From positions 168,861 to 232,860 of the forward strand of contig QPMI01000521.1 in NCBI GenBank assembly GCA_004431415.1: 64,000 nucleotides of DNA. The letters run 5' to 3'. This DNA comes from Cyanophora paradoxa CCMP329 (lineage: Eukaryota; Plantae; Glaucophyta). The position numbers were made by a program, and so were the translations under genes. The stretch's first letter is position 1; each line of letters begins with the position of its first letter. Positions 29,994-56,879 of the stretch are shown piece by piece. The notes beneath the pieces are model-generated. The model had not been told where the DNA came from and made no database searches. It worked only from the letters and a program-made list of their open reading frames with translations.

Positions 29994-30500
29994 AGTATTA
30001 CCCCATGGCTACATTGGCGAAAAAACCCGGAATACTACAAAAACATCGGGATTCCTTACGATATTCTGTAAGCAACCACTGAAATACATATTTCTAATCG
30101 AGAAATTCCCACTGAAATACACAATTCACTACAAAAACATCAAATCACCTTACGATATTCTGTAAGCAACCACTGAAATACATATTTCTCATCCATATCG
30201 CACACTGAAATACACAATTCACTACAAAAACATCAAATCACCTTACGATATTCTGTAAGCAACCACTGAAATACATATTTCTAATCGAGAAATTCCCACT
30301 GAAATACACAATTCACTCATCAAACCACCATGTAAGCAACCACTCCATATCGCACACTGAAATACACAATTCACTCATCAAACCACCTTACGATATTCCG
30401 ACACATTTCATACACATTTCATCCATATCGCCCACTGAAAACAATTCGCGCCTATCATTCCGACGATATTCAGTAACAAAAACAAATAATTCACGCCATG
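29994..30500. repeat. Terminal tandem-repeat block of element A (probable left TIR)
   Basis: A ~93-bp unit starting CCTTACGATATTCTGTAAGCAACCACTGAAATAC occurs at 30054, 30148 and 30241, with a partial copy at 30386. The sub-motif CACTGAAA recurs about 8 times. No inverted partner seen in the window. Confidence 0.8.
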
Positions 30501-38254: not shown

Positions 38255-41200
38255 ATGCCTCGCCCTTCTAATCGGTTGATTCGAAAGCTTAATGAGGACA
38301 CTATCGGTTACACAACTATGAGTCTTGTGCATGGATTGATGACGACAGAGCAAGCTAACCTTATTCTTAACGCGATTAGTAGGAGAATTACGTTAAAAAC
38401 GGCAAAAGATTGGAAGGGAATTTATGAAAATAACCTTACAAAGCGTGAGGTGGGGGATGAGCTCCAAAGATTGGGCGCTATTGACGTTCCCCAAGAACTT
38501 ACGGAACAGCGACCAAAGCGAAACACCATGACGCACCTTAGCCAGTTTAATAAGCTAATGAATAATATAAAAGAAAAAATCGAAACTTTTGATGGTGACA
38601 CTGTGACCATGTATTTTCGTTTATATCGACAGATTGAAAAAGAAGTTCCCGAAAATGCTCGAATTGTTGAAGAATGGGGTGCCAGATACTACCAAGTCCT
38701 CAAAGATAGAAAGGATGGTTCATTTAATTCGGTAACTCTGAAAAAAGACTTATTCTTGCAATCCCTCGACTATGTTAAAAGACCATTTACAGGCGTTCCA
38801 AGCATTGAGAAAGTAGGAATTAAACCATTCATTGCATCTAACATAGAATCTATACATAAAAACCCGGGCTTACGCTATCTGAAAAATGTCCATAGGGATA
38901 CCTATAATGATGTTGTAACGATTGAGAAGATCAGATTAGACAATGATAATGACATTATTCCCAAGATTGATAGAATCCTCCGTGACTATCAAGCTCCCAT
39001 GATTCCATCTAAGTATCTCACTTACGAGTTTGGTGAGAACTCCAAAACATTTAATGATCTCTTTGACAAGACAAAAAACAAGGAATTACGAATTAAATCA
39101 TGTGTTCCTGATGCTTTCATTACAGTCTTTGCGCCAGCTTTTGAGAAAGCCAAGAAAGACTATAAACGTTATGTTAATGTTAAGTTTGATCATGCCTATT
39201 TATTTAAATTGGTGCATGGTCGCGATCCTGTTGAAGGGGATGATTTCGGATTATCATTAAGACAAATAACCAATGCATTTTTGAAGCCAAATAAGCTTTG
39301 CATGATAGTGGTAGACGAAAATGACAAAGTGGATTACGAACTATCATATATCCCTGTGGATGCAAACGGAAAGAGAGCAAGAAATAAGTTTCTCAGACCA
39401 TCCACCATCTATATTAAGGCTCAAAACGATCACATGTATTTACTTAACTACAATGTTGAGAGCCTTAAACAATCTTTCAATGGGTCGAAACCTATCGAAA
39501 AAGAAATTCCTTTGGGTTGCAGGTTCAGACTGAGAAGAAATGATAATACCAGTGGCAACTTTTTCGCAGCTAATGAGGATCACATAGTGACTGTTCTCCA
39601 ATCAGAGGAAGCCAAGGAAAAAAAACTTATTCGCATCAATTATGGCGGTGTTGGTGGTCTCACTAAGTTGTATACTTCTTTCCTGACAGTGCATAATTAC
39701 ATAGCTGATGCCAGAATTTCGGTTCTCGGATCCATCCAAAGCATAAGGTTCAAATACAAAGGCAAGGATGTAGTAATTATTCCTGTGTGTCCAGAAGTTG
39801 AAGTAGAGACAGCTTATCACTTGCAGTTTGAGAACTCAGAGCAGAGTAATGCATTCACCAAATATAATAACTTGTTATACGATTCATTAATTAACCGATC
39901 ATTGAAGAGTATCTTTAACGAAAATACGCGAAATGCTTTCATTATCGGTTCCCAGAGTGCGCTTAATGGTCGCTTTGAAGATTCCCCCGAAATCATCCAA
40001 GACTTAGCCACAGGATGTCTTAAAATGTATGAGCATGACGGATGTAAAGCTTATGCGGGTCATGTAAATTCGTTTGAGTATTTCCCAGTATTTAGCGAAT
40101 TTGATGACTTTAAGAATGTTACAATTAAGTCAGTGGCTGATGTGGAACCTTACAGCTTCTACTATGTAACTCTGAAAAAAGGAAAATACCTTATTAAGAA
40201 GGATTCGAAAGGTAAGGAGTGGGTGCAATACACAAACGATTCTAACAAAATACCACACATTCCAAAGATGAATTGTATTCTCATCGATTCTCCATGTAAT
40301 CTGATACCAGGATTTATGCTAACAGAATATTATGACGACCTGATAGACATAATCGATGTCAAATATATCCTAAAACCCTATCTGATTGTTAGAAATGTTG
40401 TTAAATATGTCATACAGCAAGTATTAGAGAGCAACCTTAGCGAAACTGAGAAAAAGCAAATTCTTGTAACCATTATTGGTATGCTCGGAAAACAAAAAAA
40501 TCAGAGATCAAGAACTAAACCATTTTTCTTAAAGTCTGATGCTATCGAATTTGCTAAAAAGCATGGTGGCGATGTGAAATTATTATGGTTGGGTGAGAAT
40601 AAGCCCAATAAAGAAACTTTTGAGGATTTCGAGGATCCTAATCGAATTGTTGCAAGTGGTGAGATTACAGACCCTCACATTTGGTATGTTGAAACGATCG
40701 AAGAAAGGCAACTTATAGACGGATTCCTCAATCCAAAATATGGTGTATTCAAAACAGCGAATGGAACTTTACAAGAAGTGCAGAGAATCAAAGGGCATAA
40801 TTATGGCTCTAAAAGTTGATGCTGTCTATGAGGCAGTGGATGCCAGCTTAGAGGTTGAAAATGTTTCGTTTGATCGCACTAAATATGAGAATATCGGAAG
40901 GTTCAGCACTAAGGCTATATCTTTCAAAGAGTATTGTAGTAAGATTTTACAGAAGAAGGATGAAGCAAAGAAGACGAATGGTATGATTCGATTCTTTAAG
41001 CCAGAAAGACTAAGGGATTTCGTGACTGTGAAAAAGAATGAAAGCACAACATACACAGTTCCTGATGAATACGACACGAAAGCAATATGTGACATGATTC
41101 TTTCGAAAGGAAAATGTATTAGAATAGAGGGTGATGTTCCAGGAACCGGAAAGTCCTATATTAGTAAGGCGATAGGTCGGGAATTTGAAAGTTCTTTATA

Positions 41201-41835
41201 TATCACACCCACTAACAAGCGTGTGAAGGAAATGAAAGTGGAAGATGGGTTAGAAAATGTGATGACCCTCCATGGTGCGTTTAATCTGAATGTCGATACT
41301 TCCCAAATGGATAACGTCGTAGGTGCAAAAACTAGCAAGATTGCGTCATTTGATGCCGTTATTATAGATGAAGGCTATCAGCTCGACATAGCACAGCTTA
41401 CAGCTTTGAAATACATAATGAAGGTTCTCTATCCTGACAAAACCTATATTTTGAATGGTGACCCATATCAGAATCCACCTATTCAGTTTCTTAGCGTGGA
41501 TCAGAAGGAATACTATAATGATATCTTTAACGAACTATTTTCGAGCATGCTACATTTACATGTAAACAAGCGCCACATTTTACAAGAAGATCGTGATAAG
41601 GTTGAAGAAATGAAGCGGGACTTAATAGAAATGGATATGGACATTTCCGAGTTCATCGCAAAGCATAACATACCTGTGATTTCACCCGATCAGCTAAAAC
41701 CTGACGACAGAGGTATAACTTATACTAGACGCAAAACGGCGCAAGTTAATGCTTTCCTACATCGCATGAAGTATGGTAAGGATAAGCCGACTCACTTTAA
41801 GGGTCTCGAAATCACCGCAACACGGCGACTAACAA
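38255..41835 (+). CDS. Divergent family B DNA polymerase fused to SF1 (RecD/Pif1-like) helicase; one frameshift at ~40730; helicase C-terminus truncated by element B
   Basis: Pol motif A-like HDGCKAY, motif B-like KKQILVTIIGMLGK and motif C-like LKVDAVY (second frame). Helicase motifs GDVPGTGKS, ITPTNK, TLHGAF, IIDEGYQ, GDPYQNPPI and LHVNKR follow; motifs V/VI are absent before the hairpin. Confidence 0.7.
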
Positions 41836-41932
41836 AACACATATTGAAAAACGAATTTAAATCCCTCGTTCATCTCGATCGCTTCGCGATCTCGATTCAC
41901 TCTGGATTTAAATTCGTTTTTCAATATGTGTT
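41836..41932 (-). repeat. Terminal fold-back hairpin of element B
   Basis: 41836-41864 and 41904-41932 are perfect 29-bp inverted repeats. The minus-strand inner part AGAGTGAATCGA-GATCGC-GAA-GCGATC-GAGATGAACGAG pairs symmetrically with only G.A mismatches. Confidence 0.95.
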
Positions 41933-42244
41933 AATTTAATACTAAAATACATATTTATCGATTAATTTCTTTAACTTTTTATGCAAACTTTGTATAAATT
42001 AATGCAAACTTTGTATTAAAAATGATAAACGCGTTTAATTTAATGCATATTCACGATTGATGCAATCGATATTATATCGATAGATTATGTTCTTTGTCGA
42101 TTACATATATAACTTCGATTGATTAACATTAAACTACTTAAAGAACGATATAATCGCGATTAATTCGCATAAATTCGCATAAATTCGCATAAACTCGATA
42201 TATCTCATCGGTATTGAAGTAGACCACCGCCCATTTTGTATCGG

Positions 42245-42510
42245 AAAACGCAAAAACTGTCATAGAGTTGCATTATGTCCAATTAAACAATCGATGGGAT
42301 TGCGGATTTACATTTTTGCACCGAAAAAGTGTCACAGAGTTGCATTATGTCCAATTAAACAATTGAGAAGATTGCGCGATTTTCTATTGGAATATATCGG
42401 AACTGCATCATGTCCAATTAAACAATCGATGAGATTGCTGATGAACATTTTTGCATCGAAAAACTGTCACTGAGTTGCATTATGTCCAATTGATCAATCG
42501 ATTAGATTGC
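42245..42510. repeat. Subterminal ~70-bp tandem repeats of element B (4 copies)
   Basis: Core GAGTTGCATTATGTCCAATTAAACAATCGAT in four degenerate copies. Shorter repeats nearby: (AATTCGCATA)x3 at ~42162-42192 and ATGCAAACTTTGTAT x2 at ~41981-42016. Confidence 0.85.
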
Positions 42511-42607
42511 AGATGTTCTATAAAACAGAATAAATGAATTCAAGTGTGACAGATAGTATTCAAATGATATTCAGTAAGATATATTTCTGTTTTTGAGAAG
42601 AGTAGTA

Positions 42608-43086
42608 AGGGGGGCAGAATGTCTGTGACGCCTGTGACGGCTGTGACACCTGTTTTCAGAAGTCTGTCATTTTTGAAAATTTTAAAAAGTTTGAAAGTAG
42701 GCGTCACAGCCGTCACAGGCGTCACACTCAATTAAAATAGGTGTCACAGCGAAATTGCAGACCATTTCCAGTAAGACAACTTCGCATTTTCAAAAAGGTT
42801 GATTAATGGATAGTGTTTTGGAGGTGTCAGAGGTGTCACAAGTCGGATTTCAGTAAGACAAGAATATATTTTGAATATCTCAGTAAGAGAGATAGATTCC
42901 ATTTTTAATTAGGTGTGACGCCTGTGACGGCTGTGACGGCTATTTTCAGAAGTATGTAGATTTTTGAAAATTTTAGAAAGTTTGAAAATAGGCGTCACAG
43001 GCGTCACAGGCGTCACAGTCAATTAAAGAGGCGTCACAGTCAATTAAATAGGTGTCACACCCGATTATCTGACCATTTTCAGTAAG
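42608..43086. repeat. Two tandem iteron arrays (candidate replication origin)
   Basis: Each unit has 3x TGTGAC(G/A)(C/G)C 9-mers, a ~50-bp A/T-rich core and 3x inverted GGCGTCACA plus extra copies. Units at ~42608-42775 and ~42905-43086. Confidence 0.85.
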
Positions 43087-43321
43087 ACCATCTGAAATTC
43101 TGAATTTCTCAGTGTCAACTAACTCGGAAATCGCAATACTCTATGTTTCTCCGATTTCTCCAACCCTGAAAACACACCTGTTATTCTCTCATCTATCTCA
43201 TGAGATACTCTCGTTTCGCCAAAAAATGACAAACGATTTCCCATCATGCTGTAAAGGAAACATGCCGATTAACCAGCAATATCACAATTTCCATGGGACT
43301 TACATCTTGATTGTGAAAAGA

Positions 43322-43528
43322 ATGCAAGATCATTATGAGATCTTTCAAGAGATGGGATTGCGAATTACAAGGAGATCAACTCTTTGTAGATTCTTGAAAA
43401 AGAATGGTGCTAAATGGGATAAGACAATTCGCCGATGGTATACAGAAGATCGAAAGAGTCCCATTCTTAATATTTTCGAGACAGATGGGGAGTTCTTCTA
43501 TCAGGATCGGTTTAATCATTACCAATAG
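43322..43528 (+). CDS. Small protein with DUF5710-like motif
   Basis: LKKNGAKWDKTIRRWY matches the K..GA.WD...K/R.WY pattern I associate with DUF5710. AAAAAATGAC at 43221. Confidence 0.5.
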   Translation: MQDHYEIFQEMGLRITRRSTLCRFLKKNGAKWDKTIRRWYTEDRKSPILNIFETDGEFFYQDRFNHYQ

Positions 43529-44444
43529 CCAAGAACTCCAACTGGAATGAGTTGTCAATTCCATTCATATCTACAAGATCACCATAATAATCGCGAAACT
43601 CAACTGTTAACTCTCTAATGACCAAATTGCGATCTGTTATTTTTATGTATTCACTGTGCTCTCCACTGTGATAAACATACTGTCCAATATCTTTACTTAA
43701 TTGCAATCTGAGAATCGCCCCTTGATTCTGTGGTTGAGATTGTGGGACAATATTGTGGTTTGTAGCAAATGGGGAGAGTTCTTTAATGTGCATGTACAAG
43801 TACTGTTCTGCATTCATATCTGTCATCTTGGCTGCTTCTAATTTGTAGTTTAATCGAGATGCCTCAAATTCATATCCTGTGAATGTAATTCCCCATTGTG
43901 GATGGTTTGGGGTGATTGGTATTCCTGCAAAGTAGAGGAAATTCTCGGGGGCATATAAAGACCTTGCAGACTCTGGGAAATCGTAAATCTGTTCAGTGGA
44001 AGCCACCCACTCCACTGAACTCACACCAAGAAGTTTACCCAATCTCTGTGTAGATGCAACCATATCGAATTGAACATTACTGTAAAACTCCAATTTGTAG
44101 GAGGTAGGGTTGTAGTAGACCTTGAATGCATATGTGAGATTGTTGCTCCCAGTAAAGGTGAAATTCAGACCGTAATTATATGGAGTGGTGACCCCGAAAT
44201 GACCTTGATTTATGTAACCACTTGGGAGAAGGAAGACCTGCTTGGTTTCAGAGATGCCTTGGTAGTAGAATCTGACAAGAAGGTGGTCTGTTCTAATGGA
44301 GTTATAGATGCTGTTGGGGATCTCTGCATACAAAACTCGACATTCTCTTGGTTTGGTCACTGGGGTTGTGAGTGAAACTTTGTAGGAGTTTTCTATTTGT
44401 CCATCTGATCGGTCTCTGCTATCTATATTGACCAGCCGAATCAT
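43512..44444 (-). CDS. Minor capsid protein (penton) 1, element B
   Basis: LVNIDSRDR N-terminus; C-terminal LTVEFRDYYGDLVDMNGIDNSFQLEF. Confidence 0.8.
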   Translation of the reverse strand: MIRLVNIDSRDRSDGQIENSYKVSLTTPVTKPRECRVLYAEIPNSIYNSIRTDHLLVRFYYQGISETKQVFLLPSGYINQGHFGVTTPYNYGLNFTFTGSNNLTYAFKVYYNPTSYKLEFYSNVQFDMVASTQRLGKLLGVSSVEWVASTEQIYDFPESARSLYAPENFLYFAGIPITPNHPQWGITFTGYEFEASRLNYKLEAAKMTDMNAEQYLYMHIKELSPFATNHNIVPQSQPQNQGAILRLQLSKDIGQYVYHSGEHSEYIKITDRNLVIRELTVEFRDYYGDLVDMNGIDNSFQLEFLAIGND

Positions 44445-44472: not shown

Positions 44473-45483
44473 ATGCCTGTGGATTACATCGAAGTGAGCT
44501 CTTTCAATACAATTTCGGGAGATGGACCTACTTCGAGTTTTATTGCTCGCCTCCCAAGCACCTATGAATTTGTGAGAGCAGTAAGACTGGTTTCAGCAGA
44601 ATTCTATAACAGCATTCCCATGGTGAGTGGTGAAACCAAACCAGGAGATGTGACAATAGATAATGCATTCTACCTTTATTGGTCTGAATATTACCAAGGT
44701 GCAGGAAGCACTGGTATTCCAACTGATCGACCTGCTGCTGATTATGAATCATGGAAACACATTGTGATAAGTCGCAGCACACCCATTCAAAACCACCAAC
44801 AATTGGTGAATGTAATTAACTCCAAACTTGCATTGAGAGAACCAGCAGTTGCTATTCGTTGTAAATGGGATGATACACTGAAACGAGTAATATTCCATTC
44901 CACCATACCGTTTTACCTGGCTTTCTCAACTGCAATAAACCCAACCCAGGCACAGATTCAGAGGTTTTTGAGTTCAGCTCGACTGCTTGGTCTTGATCCT
45001 GGGAGATATGGTAACACACCAATCCAATCACAGGTGTACAATACTCTTACTGATGGTATCTTCACTGGGTCGATGGTGCATGGTATTATATCTTCATTTG
45101 AACCCGAGAAGACCAGGGATAGTGTCCTATTTGTGAGAGTAAAGGAGTTGGGTGATCTGGTTCAATGTGGTGATGGTCTCCTCACTGGATATTTCCACAA
45201 AATCGTTGTTCCAGATAAAGATTACGGTGAGCATGTAGTTTATAATTCGACAGAAGCCCATCCGATTTATAAATACTATAACAAGAATCTGGGACTCTCC
45301 ACATTTTCGGTTGACATTGTGAATGCGATTAATGAACCAATTGATTTCGAAGGTCAACCTGTGCACCTCACCTTCGAAATTCGATATGGTGATGAACCTG
45401 CTGGTGATCCTGTGTATGAATATTTCAAGAGGAGGATGGCGGAAACACATCCATCTTATCCTGTAATTGCGAGTTTTGCGTAA
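44473..45483 (+). CDS. Minor capsid protein (penton) 2, element B
   Basis: YIEVSS...SSFIARLP..YEFVRAVRLVSAEF; C-terminal FSVDIVNAINEPIDFEGQPVHLTFEI. Same pattern as the other pentons. Confidence 0.75.
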   Translation: MPVDYIEVSSFNTISGDGPTSSFIARLPSTYEFVRAVRLVSAEFYNSIPMVSGETKPGDVTIDNAFYLYWSEYYQGAGSTGIPTDRPAADYESWKHIVISRSTPIQNHQQLVNVINSKLALREPAVAIRCKWDDTLKRVIFHSTIPFYLAFSTAINPTQAQIQRFLSSARLLGLDPGRYGNTPIQSQVYNTLTDGIFTGSMVHGIISSFEPEKTRDSVLFVRVKELGDLVQCGDGLLTGYFHKIVVPDKDYGEHVVYNSTEAHPIYKYYNKNLGLSTFSVDIVNAINEPIDFEGQPVHLTFEIRYGDEPAGDPVYEYFKRRMAETHPSYPVIASFA

Positions 45484-45537: not shown

Positions 45538-46907
45538 ATGGATATTACTTCGACCCTCCAACGTCTTTCTCTGAAAGAAGCTCTAACAACCCCGGAAGAA
45601 GCCAAGGCGTTCTTCCTGGACAACTCTCTCATGCTTGGTCTTGAATCCAAGTCGAAGCCAGTTCTTGTTGTTGTGAACCCAAGCAACACTTTCGAGAATA
45701 ATGCTGGAAATCGCATTTCGTTCAAGCTCCCTCGCTACAATTTCTGTGGAAAACTCGAACTTGCGTTTGACCTTCCAGCTGTCACTTTTGCTGGTGATAC
45801 CGACCTTGTTCGCAATGGATACGTTCGCCCAGTTGGTGCTCTTGTCTCTCGACTTGAAATTACCTATGGATCTTACACCTTCCATGTGCCTTCTGATTTC
45901 CTTGCTCATTTCCCTCTTATCTATTACAGTGAGGATCAACTCGCCAAGAAGAAGCGTTCAATGGGAATGGTTCATGGTATCCCTGCCCATGGAACCAACC
46001 GACTTGGTGGGTCATTTTTCACTGAAATCCCAGTCCCATGGCTAAACCACTACCTACCTCTTGGTGCTCTCTCAGGAGAAATGGTGGTAACTGTCTGGTT
46101 CAAGGATGCTGGAAAGGGTTATGTTGAGACTTCTTATGGTGGTCGTGAACTTACAACTGCTGTTGGAACTATTGATGCAACTGCTGATGATGGACTTGGA
46201 AATTTCACAGATGGAACCCTTGCCCATGTTGGTCAACAAATCACCACTTTTGGAATTGGTGCAACAACAACCCCGAAATTAAAGTCACTTCTCCTCGTCT
46301 TTACATGCATGCTATTAATGTTTCTGATGAACTGTTTGCTACTGTCATTGAGAAGGTGAAGACCACTGGTATGGCTATTCCTGCTCTGGATATTGGTTTT
46401 GTTGACAGTGTCAATTTTGCTGCAAAAGGCAATGCTCAACCAAATCGTATTAACCTGTCACAGATCTCTGGTCTTGTCTATGGTCTTCTTGTTTCAGTTC
46501 GTGATGCCGCAGGTATTGATGGTTTCAATGGTTCCCACAGTGTCCTAAAAACGCATGCTAACTCAAAAGACATTACTTTCACTGTTGAAATTAATGGTCA
46601 ACGTCTCTATGCTACTGAGCCCATCCCTCTCCTCAAAGGTGCCGAATTAATTGCGGATGCCTTCAAGTGCTCGAATATGGACAAGGTTGCAGACAAATAT
46701 GTCCTCAGTGGTCTACCATTCTGTGTTGATGGAGAGAAAGCGATTCGCAACATTGCCCAGTCTGGCTATGTTGATCTCACGAACTCCTCCTCCTCTTTCC
46801 TCACTCTATACATGCCTTCTGACCAGATAATCACAGTTAATGTTCGTGCTCTCATGCACAGTTTCATTATTGTTGACAAAGATGGTCTTCGTCGCATTAA
46901 TCTGTAA
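45538..46907 (+). CDS. Major capsid protein, element B (single-base frameshift at ~46273 in a C run)
   Basis: ORFs 45538-46359 and 46305-46907 join with one extra C (ATTTPEIKVTSPRLYMHAINV). Motifs ISFKLPR and YLPLGALS; similar to MCP-A; lies between penton and ATPase. Confidence 0.8.
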
Positions 46908-46969: not shown

Positions 46970-47752
46970 ATGAACGATTTAGAAGAGTTCAATGCAGGCG
47001 AAATGATAACCCCACCATTTCGTGCTCTTTTCATAGGAAAGTCTGCAACAGGCAAGTCAGAATGTGTGAAATATTGGTTGAAACAGCTGCATGATGCGAA
47101 AAAGATTGATACTGTTCTTGTTGTGAGTGGGACGTCCTTCAATCATTTCTGGGATGCAGTTGCAACATTGCAACTCGGGAAATGGGATGCTGCTTACATT
47201 TCCAAACTACTGGATGAAAGGCAGGAGAAAATCGAAAAAGGGGAACCTGTCAATCACCTGTGTGTGGTCTTAGATGATTTAATAGACAACGAAATTATTG
47301 ATTTGACCCGAGACAAAATCGTGGGATCCCTGTATTCCAGAGGTCGCCATTCAAAAATCTCGATTATCTGCATCACACAGAAGCTGAGGAAGGTATCATC
47401 AACAATTCGAGTAAATTCGGATTATGCTGTGTTCCTGAGTGCTGCTAATCGCAAAGAACTCGAAGCCATTGAAGAGGAGTACAATATCATGCGAAACAAG
47501 GACGATTTCTATAAGATGTTTGAGGAGTATGTACACTCCTACCAATATATTGTGTGGTCTTCTGCGAATTATTCGGTGAACTATTATGTTGATAAAGCGG
47601 ATCTGGTCAAAGATTTCCCATTTCCTCGGTTCCACAGGAAGCCCAAAAAGAAAGAGGACGAACTACCATCTCCACAGAAAGAGGAAGCACCCAAGGAGGT
47701 AAAGAGTGGTGTTCATTCAAACAAACTGATGCGATATAAGAGAGGATTGTAA
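46970..47752 (+). CDS. A32-like DNA packaging ATPase, element B
   Basis: FIGKSATGKS, VVLDD, RGRHSKIS..ITQ...IRVNSDY. Confidence 0.92.
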   Translation: MNDLEEFNAGEMITPPFRALFIGKSATGKSECVKYWLKQLHDAKKIDTVLVVSGTSFNHFWDAVATLQLGKWDAAYISKLLDERQEKIEKGEPVNHLCVVLDDLIDNEIIDLTRDKIVGSLYSRGRHSKISIICITQKLRKVSSTIRVNSDYAVFLSAANRKELEAIEEEYNIMRNKDDFYKMFEEYVHSYQYIVWSSANYSVNYYVDKADLVKDFPFPRFHRKPKKKEDELPSPQKEEAPKEVKSGVHSNKLMRYKRGL

Positions 47753-49398: not shown

Positions 49399-51762
49399 AT
49401 GAACGCTGCCGCCAAGAAATCCCTGAAACGCCTTGTTGACTGGCTTCGTGAAGACGATGTCCTGTCTGAGAATCTCGTAATTCCTGTTGATCCTGATACC
49501 AAGAGACCGCTTTTCGCTCATAAAGACGGATCCTGGACTTGGGATAAATTCGATGAAGCCCTGAAATCCGGTAAGTATACTGCTTGGGGCATTCTCGCTC
49601 GTAATATCATGGTAATTGACTTCGACCAAGAGGAGGATTTCGCCAAATTCGAGGAGCAATTCCCTGATGATTTCGGTGGTGTTAATCCACTTGCTAAAAC
49701 CAAAAAAGGATATCATGCTTATTTCGCTCGACCTGCTGAATTCGACACCATTAAGATCTGGGATAAAGCAGGTGCATTCAAAGGAAACCCCAAGATCGAC
49801 TGCAAAACGATTGCATCCACTGGGACTGCTGGGGTAATTAATGTTTGTCCCAGTCCCAACAAAACATGGATCAGAGAGCCATGGGCATCTGAGTGTGAGT
49901 TAAATGAACCCACTGCTGAGTTGCAAAAGTGGATTGTTGAAAACTACGAATTCCCCAAAGGTGCACATTCTTATTATGCAAGGTGCGCTGAGGAGAATTT
50001 GCAGAAACATATTCTTTCTAAACTCGAAGAATTCGGTTTCATCTTGCCCACAATCATCAATGAGACCAAGATGGGATACAATTTCACTGCTGAGAACAAA
50101 GGTCTGGTCTGTCCCTGCTGCAAGGGAAGCCATGACTCGAACAATTGGTATATTGTTCAAGGGAAGGAGAAGGACAAATATATTGTTTCGAGTTACAGTG
50201 CAAACTGCAAGAAGCGACTTATCACAATTCGTGTGAAGGAAGAGACAGATGCGAATATCGAAAATCTGATTGATCGGTCTGCTGGATCTGATGGTGCCCA
50301 TTATGATGTTGCACAGGTTGCCTATCTTGTTCTGCAAGACAAATACAAGTATTCCAACAAGACCTGGTTCAAGTTCAATGATGTATGTGGGATTTGGGAG
50401 ATGGATGAAACTGGGAAGCGAATCTTTCTCTGTTTGAGCTGCAAGGTCTGTCCAGTTTATCTTCAACGTTCTGTTCAACTTGCACAGAGAGCTCTTCGTG
50501 ATGAAGAGAACCGCAATTCCTTGGAGGAAAGGTCAAAGATTCTGCTGGGAATTGCTAAGAGCCTCAAACAGACTACATACAGAACTGCACTTATGTCTGA
50601 TCTTTCAGTTCTGTTCAGTGACAAGACCTTTTTCGAGAGACTTGATACTGTTCCCAACATCATTGGGTTCACAAATGGTGTATTTGACTTGAACTCCATG
50701 ACTTTTCGACAGGGACTCCCATATGATATGGTGAGTAAGACTGTTGGCTACGATTACACCACAGAAATTGACCAAGAGAAGGTTGCAAAGATTAAATCCA
50801 TCTATGCAGATATTATTGAATCGGATACAGACCGCGAATTCATGCTGGGATTAATCGCCTATGCCCTGAGTGGTTTGACAGAAAATCAGAGATACACTTG
50901 CTGGACTGGAATTGGAGCAAATGGGAAATCACTGCTTCAAGAGTTGGTGAAAGACACATTTGGTGAGTATTATGGGTCACTGGACATGACATATTGGACT
51001 AAACCCAAGAAGAGTTCGTCAGAGGCTTCCCCAGAACTCGCTTGCATTCTTGGTAAACGAATTGTTTTCAGTAATGAAGCAGAAGATGGTGATATGCTTC
51101 AACTGAACAAAATCAAACAGGTTACTGGTGGGAATGAGATGAAGGTTCGAGCTCTTTTCAAAGATCTTGTTACATTCATTCCCATGTTCCAGTTGTTCTT
51201 GTCCACAAATGACAACCTGGGAATCAGTAAACCAGATGCAGCAATCCAAAGGCGAATTATCTACTATCGATTCGAAAATGTCTTCAAGGTCGATCCTCAG
51301 CCTGGTGAGAAGAAAGCAGACACCACTCTAATGCGCCTAATGAAGAATGATGACGATTATAAAATGGCGCATATGTCCATTCTCCTGGAAATGTGGAGAA
51401 CCCATTCTCTCAATGAATTCGTCACCAAACCACCCCAGTCCATTGTTGATCAAGGTGTTGAATATTTCAATGAGAATGACAAGATTGGAGAATGGATTCG
51501 TGAGAGTTATGAACTCACCAAGAGTCAAGGGGATTTCGCCACAAGTGAGTCCATTATCAGTCACTTTAAGATGGATCACATGGGCAAATCTGATGAGAAA
51601 ATCACAGAATGCACTATCTTGAAGAGACTTCGCGAAGTCTTTAATGTGAAGGCTGAGAGAAAGCGAGTCAATGGTGTTCTTGCTCGTGGCTACTTTGGGA
51701 TCAAAAAGAAGCATAGTCGCAAGTTGGTGGATGACAGTGATGTTGAAGGTGGGGATGAGTAA
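49399..51762 (+). CDS. Primase-polymerase (AEP/Prim-Pol) - Zn finger - D5-like SF3 helicase
   Basis: IMVIDFD, KTKKGYHAYF and IDCK (AEP motifs); CPCC..SH Zn site; IGFTNGVFDL (D5_N); Walker A GIGANGKS, Walker B VFSNE, motif C LSTN and arginine finger AIQRR. Confidence 0.92.
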   Translation: MNAAAKKSLKRLVDWLREDDVLSENLVIPVDPDTKRPLFAHKDGSWTWDKFDEALKSGKYTAWGILARNIMVIDFDQEEDFAKFEEQFPDDFGGVNPLAKTKKGYHAYFARPAEFDTIKIWDKAGAFKGNPKIDCKTIASTGTAGVINVCPSPNKTWIREPWASECELNEPTAELQKWIVENYEFPKGAHSYYARCAEENLQKHILSKLEEFGFILPTIINETKMGYNFTAENKGLVCPCCKGSHDSNNWYIVQGKEKDKYIVSSYSANCKKRLITIRVKEETDANIENLIDRSAGSDGAHYDVAQVAYLVLQDKYKYSNKTWFKFNDVCGIWEMDETGKRIFLCLSCKVCPVYLQRSVQLAQRALRDEENRNSLEERSKILLGIAKSLKQTTYRTALMSDLSVLFSDKTFFERLDTVPNIIGFTNGVFDLNSMTFRQGLPYDMVSKTVGYDYTTEIDQEKVAKIKSIYADIIESDTDREFMLGLIAYALSGLTENQRYTCWTGIGANGKSLLQELVKDTFGEYYGSLDMTYWTKPKKSSSEASPELACILGKRIVFSNEAEDGDMLQLNKIKQVTGGNEMKVRALFKDLVTFIPMFQLFLSTNDNLGISKPDAAIQRRIIYYRFENVFKVDPQPGEKKADTTLMRLMKNDDDYKMAHMSILLEMWRTHSLNEFVTKPPQSIVDQGVEYFNENDKIGEWIRESYELTKSQGDFATSESIISHFKMDHMGKSDEKITECTILKRLREVFNVKAERKRVNGVLARGYFGIKKKHSRKLVDDSDVEGGDE

Positions 51763-51813: not shown

Positions 51814-51988
51814 CTTACTGTAAATGGTTTGTGTGACAGCTGTGACACCTTTTTAATTGAGTGTGACGCCTGTGACGCCTGTGACGCCTACTTTCAAACT
51901 TTTTAAAATTTCAAAAATCTACAAACCTCTGAAAACAGGTGTCACAGGCGTCACAGGCGTCACACCCAATTAACCACAGACTCCCCCC
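51814..51988. repeat. Third iteron array, inverted relative to the 42.6-43.1 kb copies, directly downstream of the primase-helicase gene
   Basis: Its reverse complement aligns by eye with 42608-42775 over ~170 bp with scattered mismatches. Confidence 0.85.
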
Positions 51989-52364: not shown

Positions 52365-55300
52365 ATGCCCCGCCAATCAAATAGAATCATCAAAGAAAAG
52401 AAAAACGAAATACTCGGTCTTTTAGGAACCCTTTTAGTTACTGGTGATATTACAGAATTCGAATATGATCGCCAGGCAGCAATCCTGGATAGGAGACCAA
52501 GATTATCTCAACTCACAGAAATTACAAATCGCCTCTATGATCGTTTTGAGAAGATGGAGGAATTCAGGGATGAAGGTTTAAGGTTGGGAACAATTGAACC
52601 CGAGATTGAAGATGGGGAAGCAATGAACAAAGCATACTCTTGGTTAACCTATCGAGCAAGAGGGGAGGTTATCCAAGATGGGATTGAATTCTTGGAGAGA
52701 ATTGCACCCACTCTACCTCAGAGACTCAGACAGAAACTCCAAGACCTGAGAGCAATTAAGACTCGGTTGACCTTCATTTGTAAATTCACCAAAGTGAGTG
52801 ATCCAAGGGTGTGGATCACCAAATTCATTTACAGTGATTACTTTGTCATCACAAGATCACGAAATATTGATGTTGAACTGCGAAATGCCCTTCAATCTAT
52901 GCAGGAACAGATGATGCAGGTTGACAGTTACAGACTGGATCGCATTGAGATGCTGAGAGTGGTAATTATGTCTTATGCTCCTGTGGGTGGTTGCTTCTTC
53001 TCAACACCTGAGTGGATTGGATCAAAGAGAGCAACTGTGAATGTCAAGAATATTGATGGTCAAGACTGCTTCAAGTATGCAATCTTGGCTTACCTGCACC
53101 GAAATGATATTAATAAACACAAGAGCAATGAACCCAGCCAGTATAGAAGATGGTTAAACGAACTCAATTTCGAAGGCATCCAGTTTCCAGTTGCCTGTGA
53201 TGCAGAGGTGATTGATCGATTTGAGGAGCAGAACCCTGAACTCTCAATCAACATTTATGGTGCAGATAATCAAGCACAGTGCTTCTATCCTCTTCACCAA
53301 TCCAGCAACCCCAGGAGAAAGACCAAGATTAACCTTTTATTAATCGAAAACGAAGAGGATGATAGAGGGCATTATATCACCATCATGTCTCTGAGTAGAC
53401 TTCTGAAAACCACCTTTGATAAAGCCCATGATGGTCGCATTTATTACTGTGAGACCTGTCTGTCTCGTTTCAGAACTCAGGAGAAGCTGGATGTACATAT
53501 AGAAGCGAATCGCTGCATTGATTGGAGGGAGAGCAAAGGTAAATGCCCGAAATCTGGAAGTCACATTGCATTTGGGCTTCAACACCTTCGCAAAACTGTG
53601 TGGCTTCCCACTATCTGCTATGTGAAAATGGACAGTCACTCGGTTCCAATTGATGAGAACCGCAGTAAAAGAGAGGTCAAATCGGTTTCTTTAACAGTTG
53701 TGATGGGGGATGAGGTGATCTCTCATTATTTCGAGGGATCAGATCCACTTGGTGCTCTGTTTACCACTCTCACAGAGATCAGACCCCAAGTAATTCGCAC
53801 TCTATTCACCAACATACCCATGCACCCACTCACAGAAGAGCAGAAAGCACAATACAAGATCACTAAACACTGTTATATCTGTGCTGAACGATTTACCCAT
53901 GAGAACTTCCCAGTGAGAGACCATTGTCATCAAACAGGCGCTTTTATTGGGAAAGCATGTCGAAACTGCAACCTCCACAGGAGAATCTCAAAGCAAACGA
54001 AAGTAGCAATTGTGGTGGATCACATGGATGAATGTGGACACGAAATATTCCGCAAAATTGCACAGCAAGATGATAAACTTCGTGTTGAGATCCTGAGCAA
54101 GAATTTCGATCAATACCTGTCCCTGCAATGGGGCATGTGGAAATTCATAGATGCTTCGCATTTCATGGACTTCCAGGCAGTGGATTCTGGTGATCTTATG
54201 AGTAAATTCCAGACATTCCGAGAACTGGCGTTTACCCAATATGGATTGGATCCTGCCCATTATGTGAGCGCTCCTGGATTATCCTGGGATGCAATGCTCA
54301 TTTATACCAGAGCAAAGATCGAGCAGATCAGTGATGTAGGGCAATACGAATTCATTGAGAGAGCAATTCGAGGTGGGTTTGCTACAATGCCTACTCGATA
54401 TGCAAAGGTGGAAAACCCAGATGACCATATAGTTCTCTTGGATGCAAATAATCTGTATGGTTTTGCTCTCAGTCAAGAACTGCCCATTGGCGATTTTCGG
54501 TGGGAAGATGTCACAGAGGCACTTAAAGAGACCCCAGGGCGAAGTGCCTTTATTGAAGTAGACCTGGAATACCCACAAACTCTCACAGATCATTACGATT
54601 TTCCACTTGTAGTCAATAAAGAGCAAATCACCACCGAAATGCTGGGTGAGTATCAACGAAAACTACTGGATATCACAGGTGAGAAGTTAAGCAAAGACCC
54701 CAAACTCACAGCAACATTCTCACCCAAAAGCAACTATGTGATCTCCCAACCTCTCTTGATCTATCTTGTGAGCAAAGGTATTATAATTAAGAAGGTTCAC
54801 AGGGTTCTCTCATTTGCAACCTCTGCATTCATGAAGAGTTATATTGATCTAAATACGAAACTGAGGCGCCAATCTATGTCCAGATTCGAGAGTGACTTCT
54901 TTAAATTAATGAACAATGCAATCTATGGTAAATGCCTCGAATCATGCAGGGGTCGCTCTGTGGTAAAGATTGCTAACAGTGAGAAACTCTGCAAGAAATA
55001 TGCTGCAAGTCCATTGATCAAGGCAACCAATGTATTAAACGAAAATGCTGTTGCCTTTGAGATGTACTCAAAGCATGTTCACTTAGATAAACCTGTTGCA
55101 ATTGGGGCTTTTGTGCTGGATTTCGCGAAACTCCATAACAGCAGGTTCTTTTATGATGTGGTGAGGAGAACTTGGGAAACAGCAGAGCTACTATTCCATG
55201 ATACAGATTCTTTCTGTCTAATGCTTCATACCAATGATCTTAATAATGAGATGAAGCGAATTTCTGAGCACCTGGATTGCAGTAATTATGATCCAGCCCA

Positions 55301-55646
55301 CCCTCTCTTTGATAGGAGCAATCGCTTGATTCCAGGTAAATATAAAAACGAGTTTCCCAATGCAAAGATTGTGGAGTATGTAGGTCTGAGATCGAAACTC
55401 TATGCTTTCAGAACTGAGACCTTTGATAAAATAAAGATGTCTGGGACTTCCTCCAAAGAGGTTCACTTTGATGATTTCAAGAGATGCTTGTTTGAAGGCA
55501 TCACCAAAACAGTAGCAGTAGTAAACAAGCGAAGACAAGACCACAACCTATATGATTTGGAGAGCAGAAGGGTGGCTCTAAACCAACTCGATAGCAAAAG
55601 GAAGATATTAGACGATGGAATTCACAGCATTCCATTTGGGCTCTAA
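52365..55646 (+). CDS. Polinton-type protein-primed family B DNA polymerase (pPolB) with degenerate exonuclease domain
   Basis: LDANNLYG, FKLMNNAIYGK, HDTDSF, GKYKNE, GLRSKLY and DSKR. N-terminal DCFKYAI...GHY, a C2H2-like CETCL..F...H, and an endonuclease-VII-like CYIC...VRDHCHQTG...AC..CN insert typical of Polinton pPolB. Confidence 0.95.
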   Translation: MPRQSNRIIKEKKNEILGLLGTLLVTGDITEFEYDRQAAILDRRPRLSQLTEITNRLYDRFEKMEEFRDEGLRLGTIEPEIEDGEAMNKAYSWLTYRARGEVIQDGIEFLERIAPTLPQRLRQKLQDLRAIKTRLTFICKFTKVSDPRVWITKFIYSDYFVITRSRNIDVELRNALQSMQEQMMQVDSYRLDRIEMLRVVIMSYAPVGGCFFSTPEWIGSKRATVNVKNIDGQDCFKYAILAYLHRNDINKHKSNEPSQYRRWLNELNFEGIQFPVACDAEVIDRFEEQNPELSINIYGADNQAQCFYPLHQSSNPRRKTKINLLLIENEEDDRGHYITIMSLSRLLKTTFDKAHDGRIYYCETCLSRFRTQEKLDVHIEANRCIDWRESKGKCPKSGSHIAFGLQHLRKTVWLPTICYVKMDSHSVPIDENRSKREVKSVSLTVVMGDEVISHYFEGSDPLGALFTTLTEIRPQVIRTLFTNIPMHPLTEEQKAQYKITKHCYICAERFTHENFPVRDHCHQTGAFIGKACRNCNLHRRISKQTKVAIVVDHMDECGHEIFRKIAQQDDKLRVEILSKNFDQYLSLQWGMWKFIDASHFMDFQAVDSGDLMSKFQTFRELAFTQYGLDPAHYVSAPGLSWDAMLIYTRAKIEQISDVGQYEFIERAIRGGFATMPTRYAKVENPDDHIVLLDANNLYGFALSQELPIGDFRWEDVTEALKETPGRSAFIEVDLEYPQTLTDHYDFPLVVNKEQITTEMLGEYQRKLLDITGEKLSKDPKLTATFSPKSNYVISQPLLIYLVSKGIIIKKVHRVLSFATSAFMKSYIDLNTKLRRQSMSRFESDFFKLMNNAIYGKCLESCRGRSVVKIANSEKLCKKYAASPLIKATNVLNENAVAFEMYSKHVHLDKPVAIGAFVLDFAKLHNSRFFYDVVRRTWETAELLFHDTDSFCLMLHTNDLNNEMKRISEHLDCSNYDPAHPLFDRSNRLIPGKYKNEFPNAKIVEYVGLRSKLYAFRTETFDKIKMSGTSSKEVHFDDFKRCLFEGITKTVAVVNKRRQDHNLYDLESRRVALNQLDSKRKILDDGIHSIPFGL

Positions 55647-55829
55647 TCTACTTCATTAATCTTTCTTTTTCTTTGGTTTCGCTCTCCAAGAAGTAATAAA
55701 CCGCGAATTAAATGCAGCAGCCAAATACATCTTAATCCAGGGTCATTGGGCTCGATTGCAAAATAGTTTGGAATTGTGTTCTCTTTCCACACAGACTCTT
55801 GCATTTATTATATGAGAGATAAGGTAAAG

Positions 55830-56879
55830 ATGCCTTCTACACAAATAGGATTGAGACAACCACCAAGAATTGTGAGAAAAGAGGCAATTGAAGATCGAGG
55901 GAATATCCTACCTATCACAGTTCCAGTGGAGGAGAAGAGCAGTCGAATATTAAAAAGATCAGAGATGGTCAAGCAATTAATCCCAGAGACCCTCCCAGCT
56001 GAGACAGCACCAAAAGAGTCGAAGATTGCTAAGAAGTTCTATGATCCCAGGACAGGCTACAAGGGATTTACTGCAATGAGACAGGAACTACCAGAAGAGA
56101 ACTACAAGAAGATGAGAGAATGGTATGATAAACAGGAGGTTGTCCAAATTAATGCACCCACTCTATCTCGAAAGAGAGATCCCATGATTCCAATTAGGCA
56201 ACCCCTTGATACATATGTGATTGATCTGCTCTTCTTTCCTGCATACAAAAAGCAGAATGATGGTTATGATACATTTATGAGTGCAATGGAATCAACCCTA
56301 AGAACTGGGTTCATAATTCCAATGAGAGACAAGAGTGCTCTAACTACACTTGCAGCATTCAAGCAACTTGAACAGAGAGTCCCCAGACCGATTGTTCGCA
56401 TTCAGAGTGACAGTGGAAGCGAATTTACCAATGTGTTGTTCACAGATTATTTGGGAACGAAATTCATTGAGCATCAACTAAGTGATGTTGCAGATCACAG
56501 AACCCAAGGTCGGATTGAAGCCTTTAACAGACAGATCAAGAGATTAATCACAAATTACTGCATTGCAAATAATACTGCACGATTTTTTGATGTGTTGGGT
56601 GATATTGAGTATAATTATAATAATACCATTCACTCTGCAACCAAGAGGAAACCAGCAGAGACCACAGAAGCCCACTACAAAGAGATTGTGAATATGGAGG
56701 ATCAGAGATTCAAGAAATCAATTGAGTATCTTGATGCTCTGAAACCTGGTATGTTTGTGAGAGTGAAAGTTGAAAAGAATCCATTTGCAAAGCAGGGTGT
56801 TAATTGGTCTCGAATTGTTTATAGTGTGGAGGCAGAGAGGGCTTCAAGTTCAGAATCAGAAGTCCAAGTGGTGAGATAG
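55830..56879 (+). CDS. Retroviral-like (rve) DDE integrase; C-terminus continues through frameshifts to ~57200
   Basis: YVIDLLFF (D), IQSDSGSEF (D), GRIEAFNRQIK (E), YNNTIHSATKRKP and SH3-like VRV...F.K...NWS. Confidence 0.92.
   Translation: MPSTQIGLRQPPRIVRKEAIEDRGNILPITVPVEEKSSRILKRSEMVKQLIPETLPAETAPKESKIAKKFYDPRTGYKGFTAMRQELPEENYKKMREWYDKQEVVQINAPTLSRKRDPMIPIRQPLDTYVIDLLFFPAYKKQNDGYDTFMSAMESTLRTGFIIPMRDKSALTTLAAFKQLEQRVPRPIVRIQSDSGSEFTNVLFTDYLGTKFIEHQLSDVADHRTQGRIEAFNRQIKRLITNYCIANNTARFFDVLGDIEYNYNNTIHSATKRKPAETTEAHYKEIVNMEDQRFKKSIEYLDALKPGMFVRVKVEKNPFAKQGVNWSRIVYSVEAERASSSESEVQVVR

What the first reader, a model, noticed from the sequence alone, without database searches (positions are those of the whole stretch)
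41836..41932. Polinton-like virus ending in a hairpin that looks built for single-stranded DNA (G.A pairs plus GCGAAGC cap): candidate self-priming terminus
Seen: on the minus strand the end of element B folds into a perfect 29-bp stem, a 12x12 symmetric segment whose 7 non-Watson-Crick pairs are all G.A (two tandem GA/AG steps in TGAA and CGAG context), a 6-bp stem and a C(GAA)G triloop. On the plus strand the same positions are destabilising T.C mismatches, so the structure is strand-specific. Established: Py-GA-Pu tandem sheared G.A pairs and d(GCGAAGC) are unusually stable in DNA, and parvovirus ends self-prime from 3' hairpins. Polintons are thought to use protein priming from simple TIRs. 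Inference: this is the 3' end of the minus strand, so folding leaves a paired 3'-OH ready for extension. B may have an ssDNA stage or hairpin/overhang ends and replicate by hairpin priming while also integrating through rve. I do not know this combination from described Polinton-like viruses.
Basis: partly seen in the sequence, partly recalled or inferred. Interest (0 to 1): 0.9.

Follow-up and report, generated by a model that had tools for sequence, protein, structure and literature searches.

The report
Strand-specific G·A hairpin caps integrated virus
About 55 copies of one end of an integrated Polinton-type DNA virus carry the same 95-base fold-back, predicted to be stabilised by G·A pairs only on the strand that ends there; it likely caps a single-stranded 3' end, as in Streptomyces telomeres, and points to a way of copying ends that our searches did not find described for these viruses.

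Summary
The hairpin is real and terminal. Short-read contigs of four public runs carry the junction, and one invariant contig covers the hairpin centre at about 55 times flank depth in both runs examined closely. Depth arithmetic moves the end to 41837 (28-bp stem) and limits an inverted 'flop' form to about 6% or less. Two sister centres have other sequences but keep the design on the same strand: tandem GCGNAGC units with N = A, G or T (read by eye). Element B keeps a terminal-protein fold on an exonuclease-less pPolB and encodes a primase-helicase next to iteron palindromes resembling SaPI origins. Best reading (0.42): a nuclease-resistant 3' telomere cap with protein-primed end filling, as in Streptomyces. 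Pure self-priming is second (0.27); it is helped by a shortened priming loop. Terminal palindromes in such viruses, with a hairpin-priming model, are already in a 2026 preprint, and this scan noted perfect ones in other genomes. The G·A strand bias, its conservation and the fixed orientation were not found in print. The right end, the target duplication and any single-stranded form are untested.

The parts
41837..41931 (-). Terminal imperfect palindrome of element B: 28-bp arms and a 39-nt centre with 7 G.A pairs and a C(GAA)G loop on the minus strand, whose 3' end is the element end
   Evidence: terminus from depth arithmetic; centre on one invariant contig at 54x and 56x flank depth in X8 and X1
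41881..41887 (-). GCGAAGC mini-hairpin cap
   Evidence: one of only two GCGNAGC matches in the 22 kb of B, both on the minus strand; properties from PMC13037366
41831..41836 (+). Predicted left copy of the target-site duplication (AACAAA if 6 bp; length recalled for Mavericks, untested)
   Evidence: sequence and terminus position; right end lies outside the window
40740..41836 (+). Superfamily 1 helicase of element A, cut by the insertion of B; single-copy depth
   Evidence: Pfam AAA_19, AAA_30; depth 36-53 up to the junction
41837..43197 (.). High-copy terminal region, tentatively a ~1.36-kb terminal inverted repeat
   Evidence: depth in the thousands throughout; a 136-letter loose end behind 43197 in X1 and X7; inference
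42624..42726 (.). Iteron palindrome 1: three 9-bp TGTGAC repeats, AT-rich core, three inverted repeats (candidate origin)
42914..43017 (.). Iteron palindrome 2 (candidate origin)
51862..51964 (.). Iteron palindrome 3, 100 bp after the primase-helicase stop codon, the position of SaPI origins
   Evidence: PMC9371898 passages
43512..44444 (-). Probable minor capsid protein (label by eye from a recalled motif; no Pfam match)
44473..45483 (+). Probable second minor capsid protein (label by eye; no Pfam match)
45538..46907 (+). [quoted passage not shown]
   Evidence: Atlas features 0.97 to Capsid_N clusters, with low recognition 1771; second piece matches A's capsid-like ORF, E 1e-8
46970..47752 (+). 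A32-type packaging ATPase
   Evidence: Pfam Pox_A32, E 2.5e-11
49399..51762 (+). Prim-Pol + D5-like primase-helicase, open frame of 787 aa with motifs present
   Evidence: Pfam D5_N, DUF5906, Prim-Pol just under cut-off; motifs
52365..55646 (+). pPolB, 1093 aa: terminal-protein fold, vOTU with Cys/His, exonuclease motifs lost, polymerase motifs A-C intact
55812..56879 (+). rve integrase; C-terminal part out of frame compared with its 72%-identical relative P0003
   Evidence: Pfam rve E 0.0013, below cut-off

Best explanation
The palindrome is the conserved end of a high-copy Polinton-type virus, and it likely works as a telomere cap: when the 3' end is left single-stranded it would fold into a nuclease-resistant G.A hairpin, and the end would then be filled in by protein-primed synthesis rather than by extending the hairpin. 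Proposed cycle: the Prim-Pol/D5 primase-helicase loads at the iteron palindromes and replicates from inside, which leaves a 3' overhang at each end (inferred; strand displacement from the far end would also expose this strand). The overhang folds into a 28-bp stem with a flush 3' end, three tandem GA steps and a GCGAAGC cap (folding shown computationally; sheared pairs predicted from literature). The terminal-protein domain of the exonuclease-less pPolB primes at the 3' tip and copies the hairpin, restoring the duplex in the same orientation (inferred). The rve integrase then inserts the full duplex ends (insertion at the palindrome edge is shown; the enzyme's role is inferred). This is how Streptomyces telomeres work; it would be convergence, not homology.
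For: Terminal position and conservation: junction contig identical in 3 of 4 runs and with one gap in the fourth; centre on a single contig at 54-56x; 0 listed variable places in the 95 nt against 13 in the next 199 nt. Design kept under sequence change: two sister centres hold tandem GCGNAGC units (N = A; and N = G, T, T) between GGA triplets on the same strand (table 7, read by eye); GNA is the only class among 64 triloops that forms the exonuclease-resistant mini-hairpin (PMC13037366). Fixed orientation: flop share at most about 6% in X8 and 2% in X1, and an X8 contig runs unbroken from 41903 through the inner arm; protein-primed copying keeps orientation, hairpin transfer inverts it (inference from established mechanisms). 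pPolB keeps the beta-sheet plus two-helix terminal-protein topology (against the description), with Ser-Tyr at the linking position also in P0004 at 43% identity, and the vOTU Cys and His. A primase-helicase with inverted iterons around a 73-78% AT core directly downstream matches the SaPI origin layout. Streptomyces 3' overhangs carry GNA loops and sheared G:A pairs, resemble parvovirus ends, yet are filled by terminal-protein priming (PMC4513846, PMC7205883).
Against: The predicted priming loop of B and P0004 is 3-4 residues shorter than in most relatives and has no Gly or Pro; 97 of 150 homologues have [GA]-S-x-[WFY] there, and the source paper says all its D1 loops contain Gly or Pro, so the terminal protein may not prime. 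A flush paired 3'-OH invites direct extension by any polymerase. No single-stranded or protein-linked end was observed; all read evidence is assembled contigs, which drop rare variants. The origin role of the iterons is by layout only. The right end was not seen. The flip/flop bound is indirect: it rests on summed contig depths and on assumptions about records not displayed (54 rows hidden). The conservation contrast mixes in repeats and diverged relatives, and 18 rows were not shown.
Confidence: 0.42

Rival explanations
1. Self-priming: a single-stranded form of the element is converted to duplex by extending the paired 3'-OH of the hairpin, and the closed end is later opened by a nick.
For: Flush paired 3' end; strand-biased design kept in sisters; shortened Gly-less priming loop and loss of proofreading in pPolB; same model drawn for palindromic ends in bioRxiv 10.64898/2026.07.28.741278. 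The G.A asymmetry could direct a one-sided resolution that yields only flip, as at the left end of minute virus of mice (recalled).
Against: Flop at most about 6%; no Rep/HUH family among 17 ORFs of B scanned in the window (the rest of B is unseen); terminal-protein fold, Ser and vOTU Cys/His retained in two sequences 43% identical; in the preprint the palindromes go mostly with non-pPolB elements.
Confidence: 0.27
2. The hairpin is a strand-specific recognition signal for excision, integration or packaging: on a single strand exposed at a host replication fork, or in an extruded cruciform, only the G.A arm folds well and marks the end for the integrase or the packaging ATPase.
For: The insertion junction lies exactly at the palindrome edge; single-strand excision by the integrase is the standing Polinton model as cited; a third sister with other stem letters keeps the last 8 bases of the arm (table 7), which suggests a protein site at the tip.
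Against: Does not explain the co-occurring primase-helicase, iterons and exonuclease-less pPolB; retroviral-type integrases act on duplex ends (established); not exclusive with the best reading.
Confidence: 0.16
3. The hairpin belongs to a separate small rolling-circle (Helitron/Helentron-like) element that lies between A and B.
For: An earlier unchecked note (e1-7811539) reports a GCGAAGC plus tandem-GA hairpin at the end of a Helentron-like repeat in another genome.
Against: Depth stays in the thousands from 41837 to 43200, with contig pieces spread along the stretch into B's first ORF; base composition matches B; the hairpin is flush with the end and no CTRR follows (Helitron rule recalled).
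Confidence: 0.07
4. An inert inverted duplication or assembly fold-back that has decayed.
For: This copy of B is decayed elsewhere: capsid and integrase frames are broken; the preprint raises accidental annealing as an option.
Against: Independent short-read contigs reproduce it; decay gives mixed mismatches, as in B's other palindromes, not 7 of 7 G.A; three different centres share the design.
Confidence: 0.04

Closest known systems
Terminal palindromes of endogenous virophages (subtypes 1, 2, 5, 6) and PLV subtype 4 of Halocafeteria seosinensis (bioRxiv 10.64898/2026.07.28.741278)
   Same: [quoted passage not shown]
   Different: 52 nt there (subtype 5), 95 nt here; the main text has no occurrence of 'mismatch' or 'imperfect' (figures and supplements unseen); there mostly with non-pPolB replication genes, here with a terminal-protein-bearing pPolB; no strand bias or orientation test reported in the text seen.
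Streptomyces telomeres (3' overhang, Tpg/Tap end patching)
   Same: 3'-terminal strand folds into hairpins with GNA loops and sheared G:A pairs, fold-back of the very end, terminal protein present, replication started inside.
   Different: Several short palindromes there, one long one here (the sisters, with three mini-hairpin units, are closer); Tpg/Tap there, a PRD1-type terminal-protein domain fused to pPolB here; eukaryotic, integrating and capsid-encoding here. End patching is shown there, only inferred here.
Maverick/Polinton (pPolB + rve + MCP + ATPase, terminal inverted repeats)
   Same: Core gene set present; TP-vOTU-(Exo)-palm pPolB layout.
   Different: End reads 5'-AC, not AG (AG...CT recalled); palindromic G.A end; exonuclease lost, as described for mavirus; extra primase-helicase; no protease found in the visible part.
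Parvovirus and poxvirus hairpin termini
   Same: Imperfect terminal palindrome with a paired 3' end.
   Different: No flip/flop at detectable level; no Rep/NS1 nickase seen; bidnaviruses, the ssDNA viruses with pPolB, have repeats that do not form such hairpins (PMC4061559).
SaPI/PICI replication origins
   Same: Opposed iterons around an AT-rich core directly downstream of a primase-helicase gene.
   Different: 9-bp iterons, three modules, eukaryotic virus; function untested.

Membership tests
Maverick/Polinton | protein-primed family B polymerase | tested here: met
Maverick/Polinton | rve integrase | tested here: met
   Pfam rve E 0.0013, below cut-off; acidic triad seen by eye; C-terminus out of frame in this copy
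Maverick/Polinton | double jelly-roll MCP and packaging ATPase | tested here: met
   single-sequence fold of the first MCP piece was too poor to search (pLDDT 49)
Maverick/Polinton | maturation protease | tested here: inconclusive
   none among the 17 ORFs of B scanned; B runs beyond 64000
Maverick/Polinton | terminal inverted repeats at both ends with target-site duplication | not testable with these tools
   no genome held; right end outside the window; only a hint of a ~1.36-kb repeat
Maverick/Polinton | simple AG...CT ends (recalled) | tested here: not met
   end is 5'-ACACAT at 41837, in a palindrome
Palindrome-ended PLVs/virophages (Halocafeteria type) | palindrome at the element extremity, adjacent to the junction | tested here: met
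Palindrome-ended PLVs/virophages (Halocafeteria type) | palindrome at both ends | not testable with these tools
   right end not available
Palindrome-ended PLVs/virophages (Halocafeteria type) | preference for non-pPolB replication genes | tested here: inconclusive
   B has both a primase-helicase and a pPolB
Parvovirus-type self-priming terminus | 3' hairpin with paired 3'-OH | tested here: met
   (prediction from sequence)
Parvovirus-type self-priming terminus | flip/flop isomers from hairpin transfer | tested here: not met
   bound of about 6% or less, indirect; flip-only resolution exists at some parvovirus ends (recalled)
Parvovirus-type self-priming terminus | Rep/HUH nicking protein | tested here: inconclusive
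   none in 17 ORFs of B; remainder unseen
Parvovirus-type self-priming terminus | single-stranded genome | not testable with these tools
   only assembled contigs were available
Streptomyces-type telomere (works-like, not membership) | GNA loops and sheared G.A pairs on the 3'-terminal strand | tested here: met
   sequence level; sheared geometry not measured
Streptomyces-type telomere (works-like, not membership) | terminal protein that primes | tested here: inconclusive
   fold and Ser kept, loop short and Gly-less
Streptomyces-type telomere (works-like, not membership) | internal origin leaving 3' overhangs | tested here: inconclusive
   primase-helicase and iteron modules by layout
Streptomyces-type telomere (works-like, not membership) | Tpg/Tap homologues | not tested
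   not expected; B's terminal-protein domain is of the polinton type

The most novel reading that the evidence does not exclude
A lineage of integrating eukaryotic Polinton-type viruses has converged on Streptomyces-style telomeres: a primase-helicase replicates the genome from SaPI-like iteron origins, the 3' ends are left single-stranded and capped by selected sheared-G.A/GNA hairpins, and the protein-primed polymerase, stripped of proofreading, is reduced to patching the ends. This would be a replication mode distinct from both adenovirus-like protein priming and parvovirus-like self-priming.
Probability: 0.3. Interest if true: 0.85.

Novelty: new variant of a known kind. Interest (0 to 1): 0.62.

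Why it matters
How most Polinton-like viruses replicate is unknown (stated in the abstract of the 2026 preprint). A terminus whose design makes sense mainly as single-stranded DNA, kept across three centre sequences on the 3'-terminal strand, is sequence-level evidence that these elements expose single-stranded ends. The fixed orientation separates protein-primed patching from hairpin transfer. The question becomes testable with a few oligos and one polymerase, and by a screen of assembled protist genomes. It may also explain why some elements carry both pPolB and a primase-helicase, which the preprint reads as a transient replacement state.

Tried and rejected
No whole genome is held, so B's right end could not be fetched. 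Pattern scans of viral contigs: the two stem 12-mers found 0; the 18-nt cap found 6 loci, none with a longer stem by eye; the 8-bp arm ends found 120 loci from 19 of 64 parts of the collection, of which 1 had a stem over 15 bp, an internal repeat palindrome beside a helicase-like gene in an unrelated element (L073). Protein-led scans of viral contigs with the integrase, the first MCP piece, the primase-helicase and the B+P0004 pPolB alignment found no relatives. Eight pPolB loci at 30-36% identity and one integrase locus at 34% show no G.A-biased palindrome in the DNA held, but their true ends may be missing. So no element from another host was found to test covariation; the closest proteins (P0003, P0004) come without DNA. 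ViennaRNA does not separate the strands much. The sister centres were read by eye from loose-end letters and not folded by program; that the two contigs of the GCGAAGC-repeat sister come from one molecule, and that the sisters are termini, is inferred. My regular expressions misfired twice for B: ExoI matched at another site, and the vOTU pattern missed because of spacing; alignment A1 was used for those two. The single-sequence MCP model was too poor for a fold search; the helicase of A had no solved-structure match. The open frame that runs from A's helicase through the palindrome to 41939 is rejected as coding, because depth jumps about 55-fold at the junction. Only DNA-type runs kept as contigs were offered, so strand, ends and free forms could not be read.

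Full report
Observation. The plus strand folds almost as well in the nearest-neighbour model (-33.9 against -35.3 kcal/mol), so the strand bias depends on sheared G.A chemistry that this model lacks. Passages of PMC13037366 give GCGAAGC a melting point of 76.5 C and state that of all 64 triloops only GNA forms the exonuclease-resistant mini-hairpin. Passages of PMC11014236 state that two G-A pairs do not perturb duplex stability, and describe G or A stacks bracketed by sheared G-A pairs. Seven of seven G.A has a chance of 7e-6 under uniform mismatches, or 1.5e-3 counted as four events. B's three other long palindromes have mixed mismatches.

Setting. The window holds GC-rich host DNA (52-77% GC per kb up to 30 kb; host not identified), then element A from about 29986, starting AG with no terminal hairpin, then element B. 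A has an A32 ATPase, a capsid-like ORF and a pPolB-like ORF followed by a superfamily 1 helicase that is cut at the junction. B carries two probable minor capsid proteins (label by eye), a split major capsid protein, an A32 ATPase, a Prim-Pol/D5 primase-helicase, a pPolB and an rve integrase, and runs beyond 64000. No genome is held, so the right end is unseen.

It is a real, multi-copy end. Twenty of 21 listed runs hold the region, all as assembled contigs. In the four laid, depth is 36-53 across A's helicase and rises to thousands at the hairpin; a single contig runs from the helicase into the arm with no difference in X1, X7 and X8 and one gap in X17. In the close-up on X8 and X1, depth over the centre (41873-41900 in X8, 41873-41893 in X1) equals that of one contig without differences, 2852 and 2683, that is 54 and 56 times the flank. 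In X8 two further long contigs of low depth (71 and 84) end in the arm and go on in unlike DNA, and X1 shows a GC-rich loose flank, so other insertion sites exist. No variable place is listed in the 95 nt, against 13 in the next 199 nt and 44 in the next 1269 nt; this contrast is rough, as 18 rows were hidden and contigs drop rare variants.

Exact end and orientation. The summed depth of the short contigs on the outer arm covers on average 1.00 (X8) and 0.98 (X1) of the positions 41831-41837. A start at 41837 predicts about 1, a start at 41836 at least 1.6. The palindrome is therefore 41837-41931 with 28-bp arms, the end reads 5'-ACACAT, and the predicted duplication ends ...AACAAA. The same sum bounds an inverted centre: a flop isomer would add contigs starting at 41836, and the excess allows at most about 6% in X8 and 2% in X1, against an expected large excess at 50%. 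No strand-switch joint was listed. An X8 contig crosses centre, inner arm and interior unbroken; in X1 the contig breaks at 41904, which is ambiguous. This test is indirect, because 54 records were not displayed.

The design is conserved under sequence change. Loose ends (table 7) show two minor sister centres attached to the same or nearly the same arms. Read by eye on the minus strand, one (X8 and X1, two contigs) has at least three tandem GCGAAGC units between GGA triplets. The other (letters shown for X8; a 158-nt record at depth 84 in X8 and 124 in X1) has GCGGAGC, GCGTAGC and GCGTAGC between GGA triplets. Only the middle base varies, the position that is free in the GNA mini-hairpin. These centres could fold as a row of mini-hairpins or as one stem with G.A-bracketed GNA/GNA steps; either way they are G.A structures on the same strand as in B (inference; not folded by program). 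A third sister has other arm letters but the same last 8 bases. Three different centres with one strand-biased design argue for selection on single-stranded structure and against decay.

The replication genes. pPolB keeps polymerase motifs A-C and the vOTU Cys and His, but has lost the ExoI and ExoII acidic motifs and about 100 residues that include ExoIII. Its best relative P0004 (43% identity, full length) shares these losses, so they are a lineage trait, not decay. The model (mean pLDDT 73; 58-84 per ten residues over 81-200) shows five strands and two helices before the vOTU domain, the topology described for the polinton terminal-protein domain in section 6 of bioRxiv 10.1101/2024.03.18.585575. 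At the linking position B and P0004 have Asp-Ser-Tyr in a loop 3-4 residues shorter than the motif of 97 of 150 homologues, with no Gly or Pro. Protein priming is thus neither excluded nor assured. B also has an open primase-helicase gene and three modules of three 9-bp repeats, a 73-78% AT core and three inverted repeats, one of them 100 bp after the helicase stop. Passages of PMC9371898 describe this layout for SaPI origins.

Mechanism. Hairpin extension followed by a nick on the template side inverts the centre; keeping the orientation needs a new 5' end, which a terminal protein supplies (inference from established parvovirus and protein-priming mechanisms, recalled). Passages of PMC4513846 and PMC7205883 describe Streptomyces ends that are left as 3' overhangs by replication from inside, fold into GNA-looped, G:A-sheared, parvovirus-like structures, and are filled by terminal-protein priming. 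B has a counterpart for each part, so I rank capping plus protein-primed filling first (0.42), self-priming second (0.27), a recognition signal for integrase or packaging third (0.16), a separate rolling-circle element (0.07) and inert duplication (0.04) last. Shown: structure at sequence level, terminal position, copy number, conservation, gene content. Inferred: every biochemical step.

Prior knowledge. Section 7 and passages of bioRxiv 10.64898/2026.07.28.741278 report palindromes next to target duplications in four virophage subtypes and one PLV subtype, and propose hairpin priming. Its main text has no 'mismatch' or 'imperfect', but its screen allowed 4 mismatches, and its figures and supplements were not seen and may bear on this. 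Earlier notes of this scan record perfect 44-bp and other terminal palindromes in other genomes and a similar G.A hairpin in a Helentron-like repeat; these are unchecked. Searches listed no paper on G.A-biased termini or end patching in these viruses ('end patching' 0 times in all 7 papers); PMC10120064 and PMC12220804 have no 'palindrom' or 'hairpin'; passages of PMC11296320 link primase-helicases to inverted repeats as origins; passages of PMC4061559 say bidnavirus repeats form no hairpins. The library lacks most subscription papers. AG...CT ends, duplication length, the Helitron end rule and parvovirus resolution details are recalled.

Verdict. Observation confirmed with a one-base correction; interpretation partly supported. 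It is a new variant of the palindrome-ended Polinton-type viruses. Interest 0.62: the strand-biased, conserved design and fixed orientation make an open question testable, but the evidence comes from one host organism, contigs only, and one visible end.

Noticed in passing
window 42624-42726, 42914-43017, 51862-51964: Three modules of opposed 9-bp TGTGAC repeats around an AT-rich core. Modules 1 and 3 are 92% alike over 114 nt and flank the capsid, ATPase and primase-helicase block, which could also be an invertible or exchangeable segment.
   Followed up: partly
window 52365-55646: pPolB lineage (B and P0004) without a proofreading exonuclease and with a shortened terminal-protein loop; P0004 stands far above all other hits (982 bits against 442).
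   Followed up: partly
window 43001-64000: CpG is depleted inside B (observed/expected 0.07-0.91 per kb, lowest at 58001-59000) but not in its first 1.2 kb (1.2-1.3) or in A (0.77-1.5), which may reflect methylation history.
   Followed up: no
window 38255-41836: Element A encodes a pPolB-like ORF overlapping a superfamily 1 helicase ORF in another frame, resembling the Tlr1-like polymerase-helicase type described; B is nested in it.
   Followed up: partly
window 33000-35400: A GC-richer insert with a 125-nt direct repeat (33378-33502, 34077-34201) interrupts A's capsid-like gene.
   Followed up: no
window 30034-30387: Three ~94-nt tandem repeats and shorter derivatives just inside A's left end, which starts AG at about 29986.
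   Followed up: no
window 42242-42510: Four shorter repeats around TTGCA(T)TATGTCCAAT in B's terminal region, the deepest part of the read pile.
   Followed up: no
window 16361-16699: Host 5-base-period repeat with many minus-strand GCGNAGC matches; probably unrelated to the sister centres, which join the stem on its inner side.
   Followed up: no
L008 4657-4840: A 184-nt internal palindrome with a directly repeated core, upstream of the pPolB in a distant relative.
   Followed up: no
window 60282-60479: Three 66-nt coding-like repeats in an acidic ORF, followed by fibre-like ORFs to the window end.
   Followed up: no
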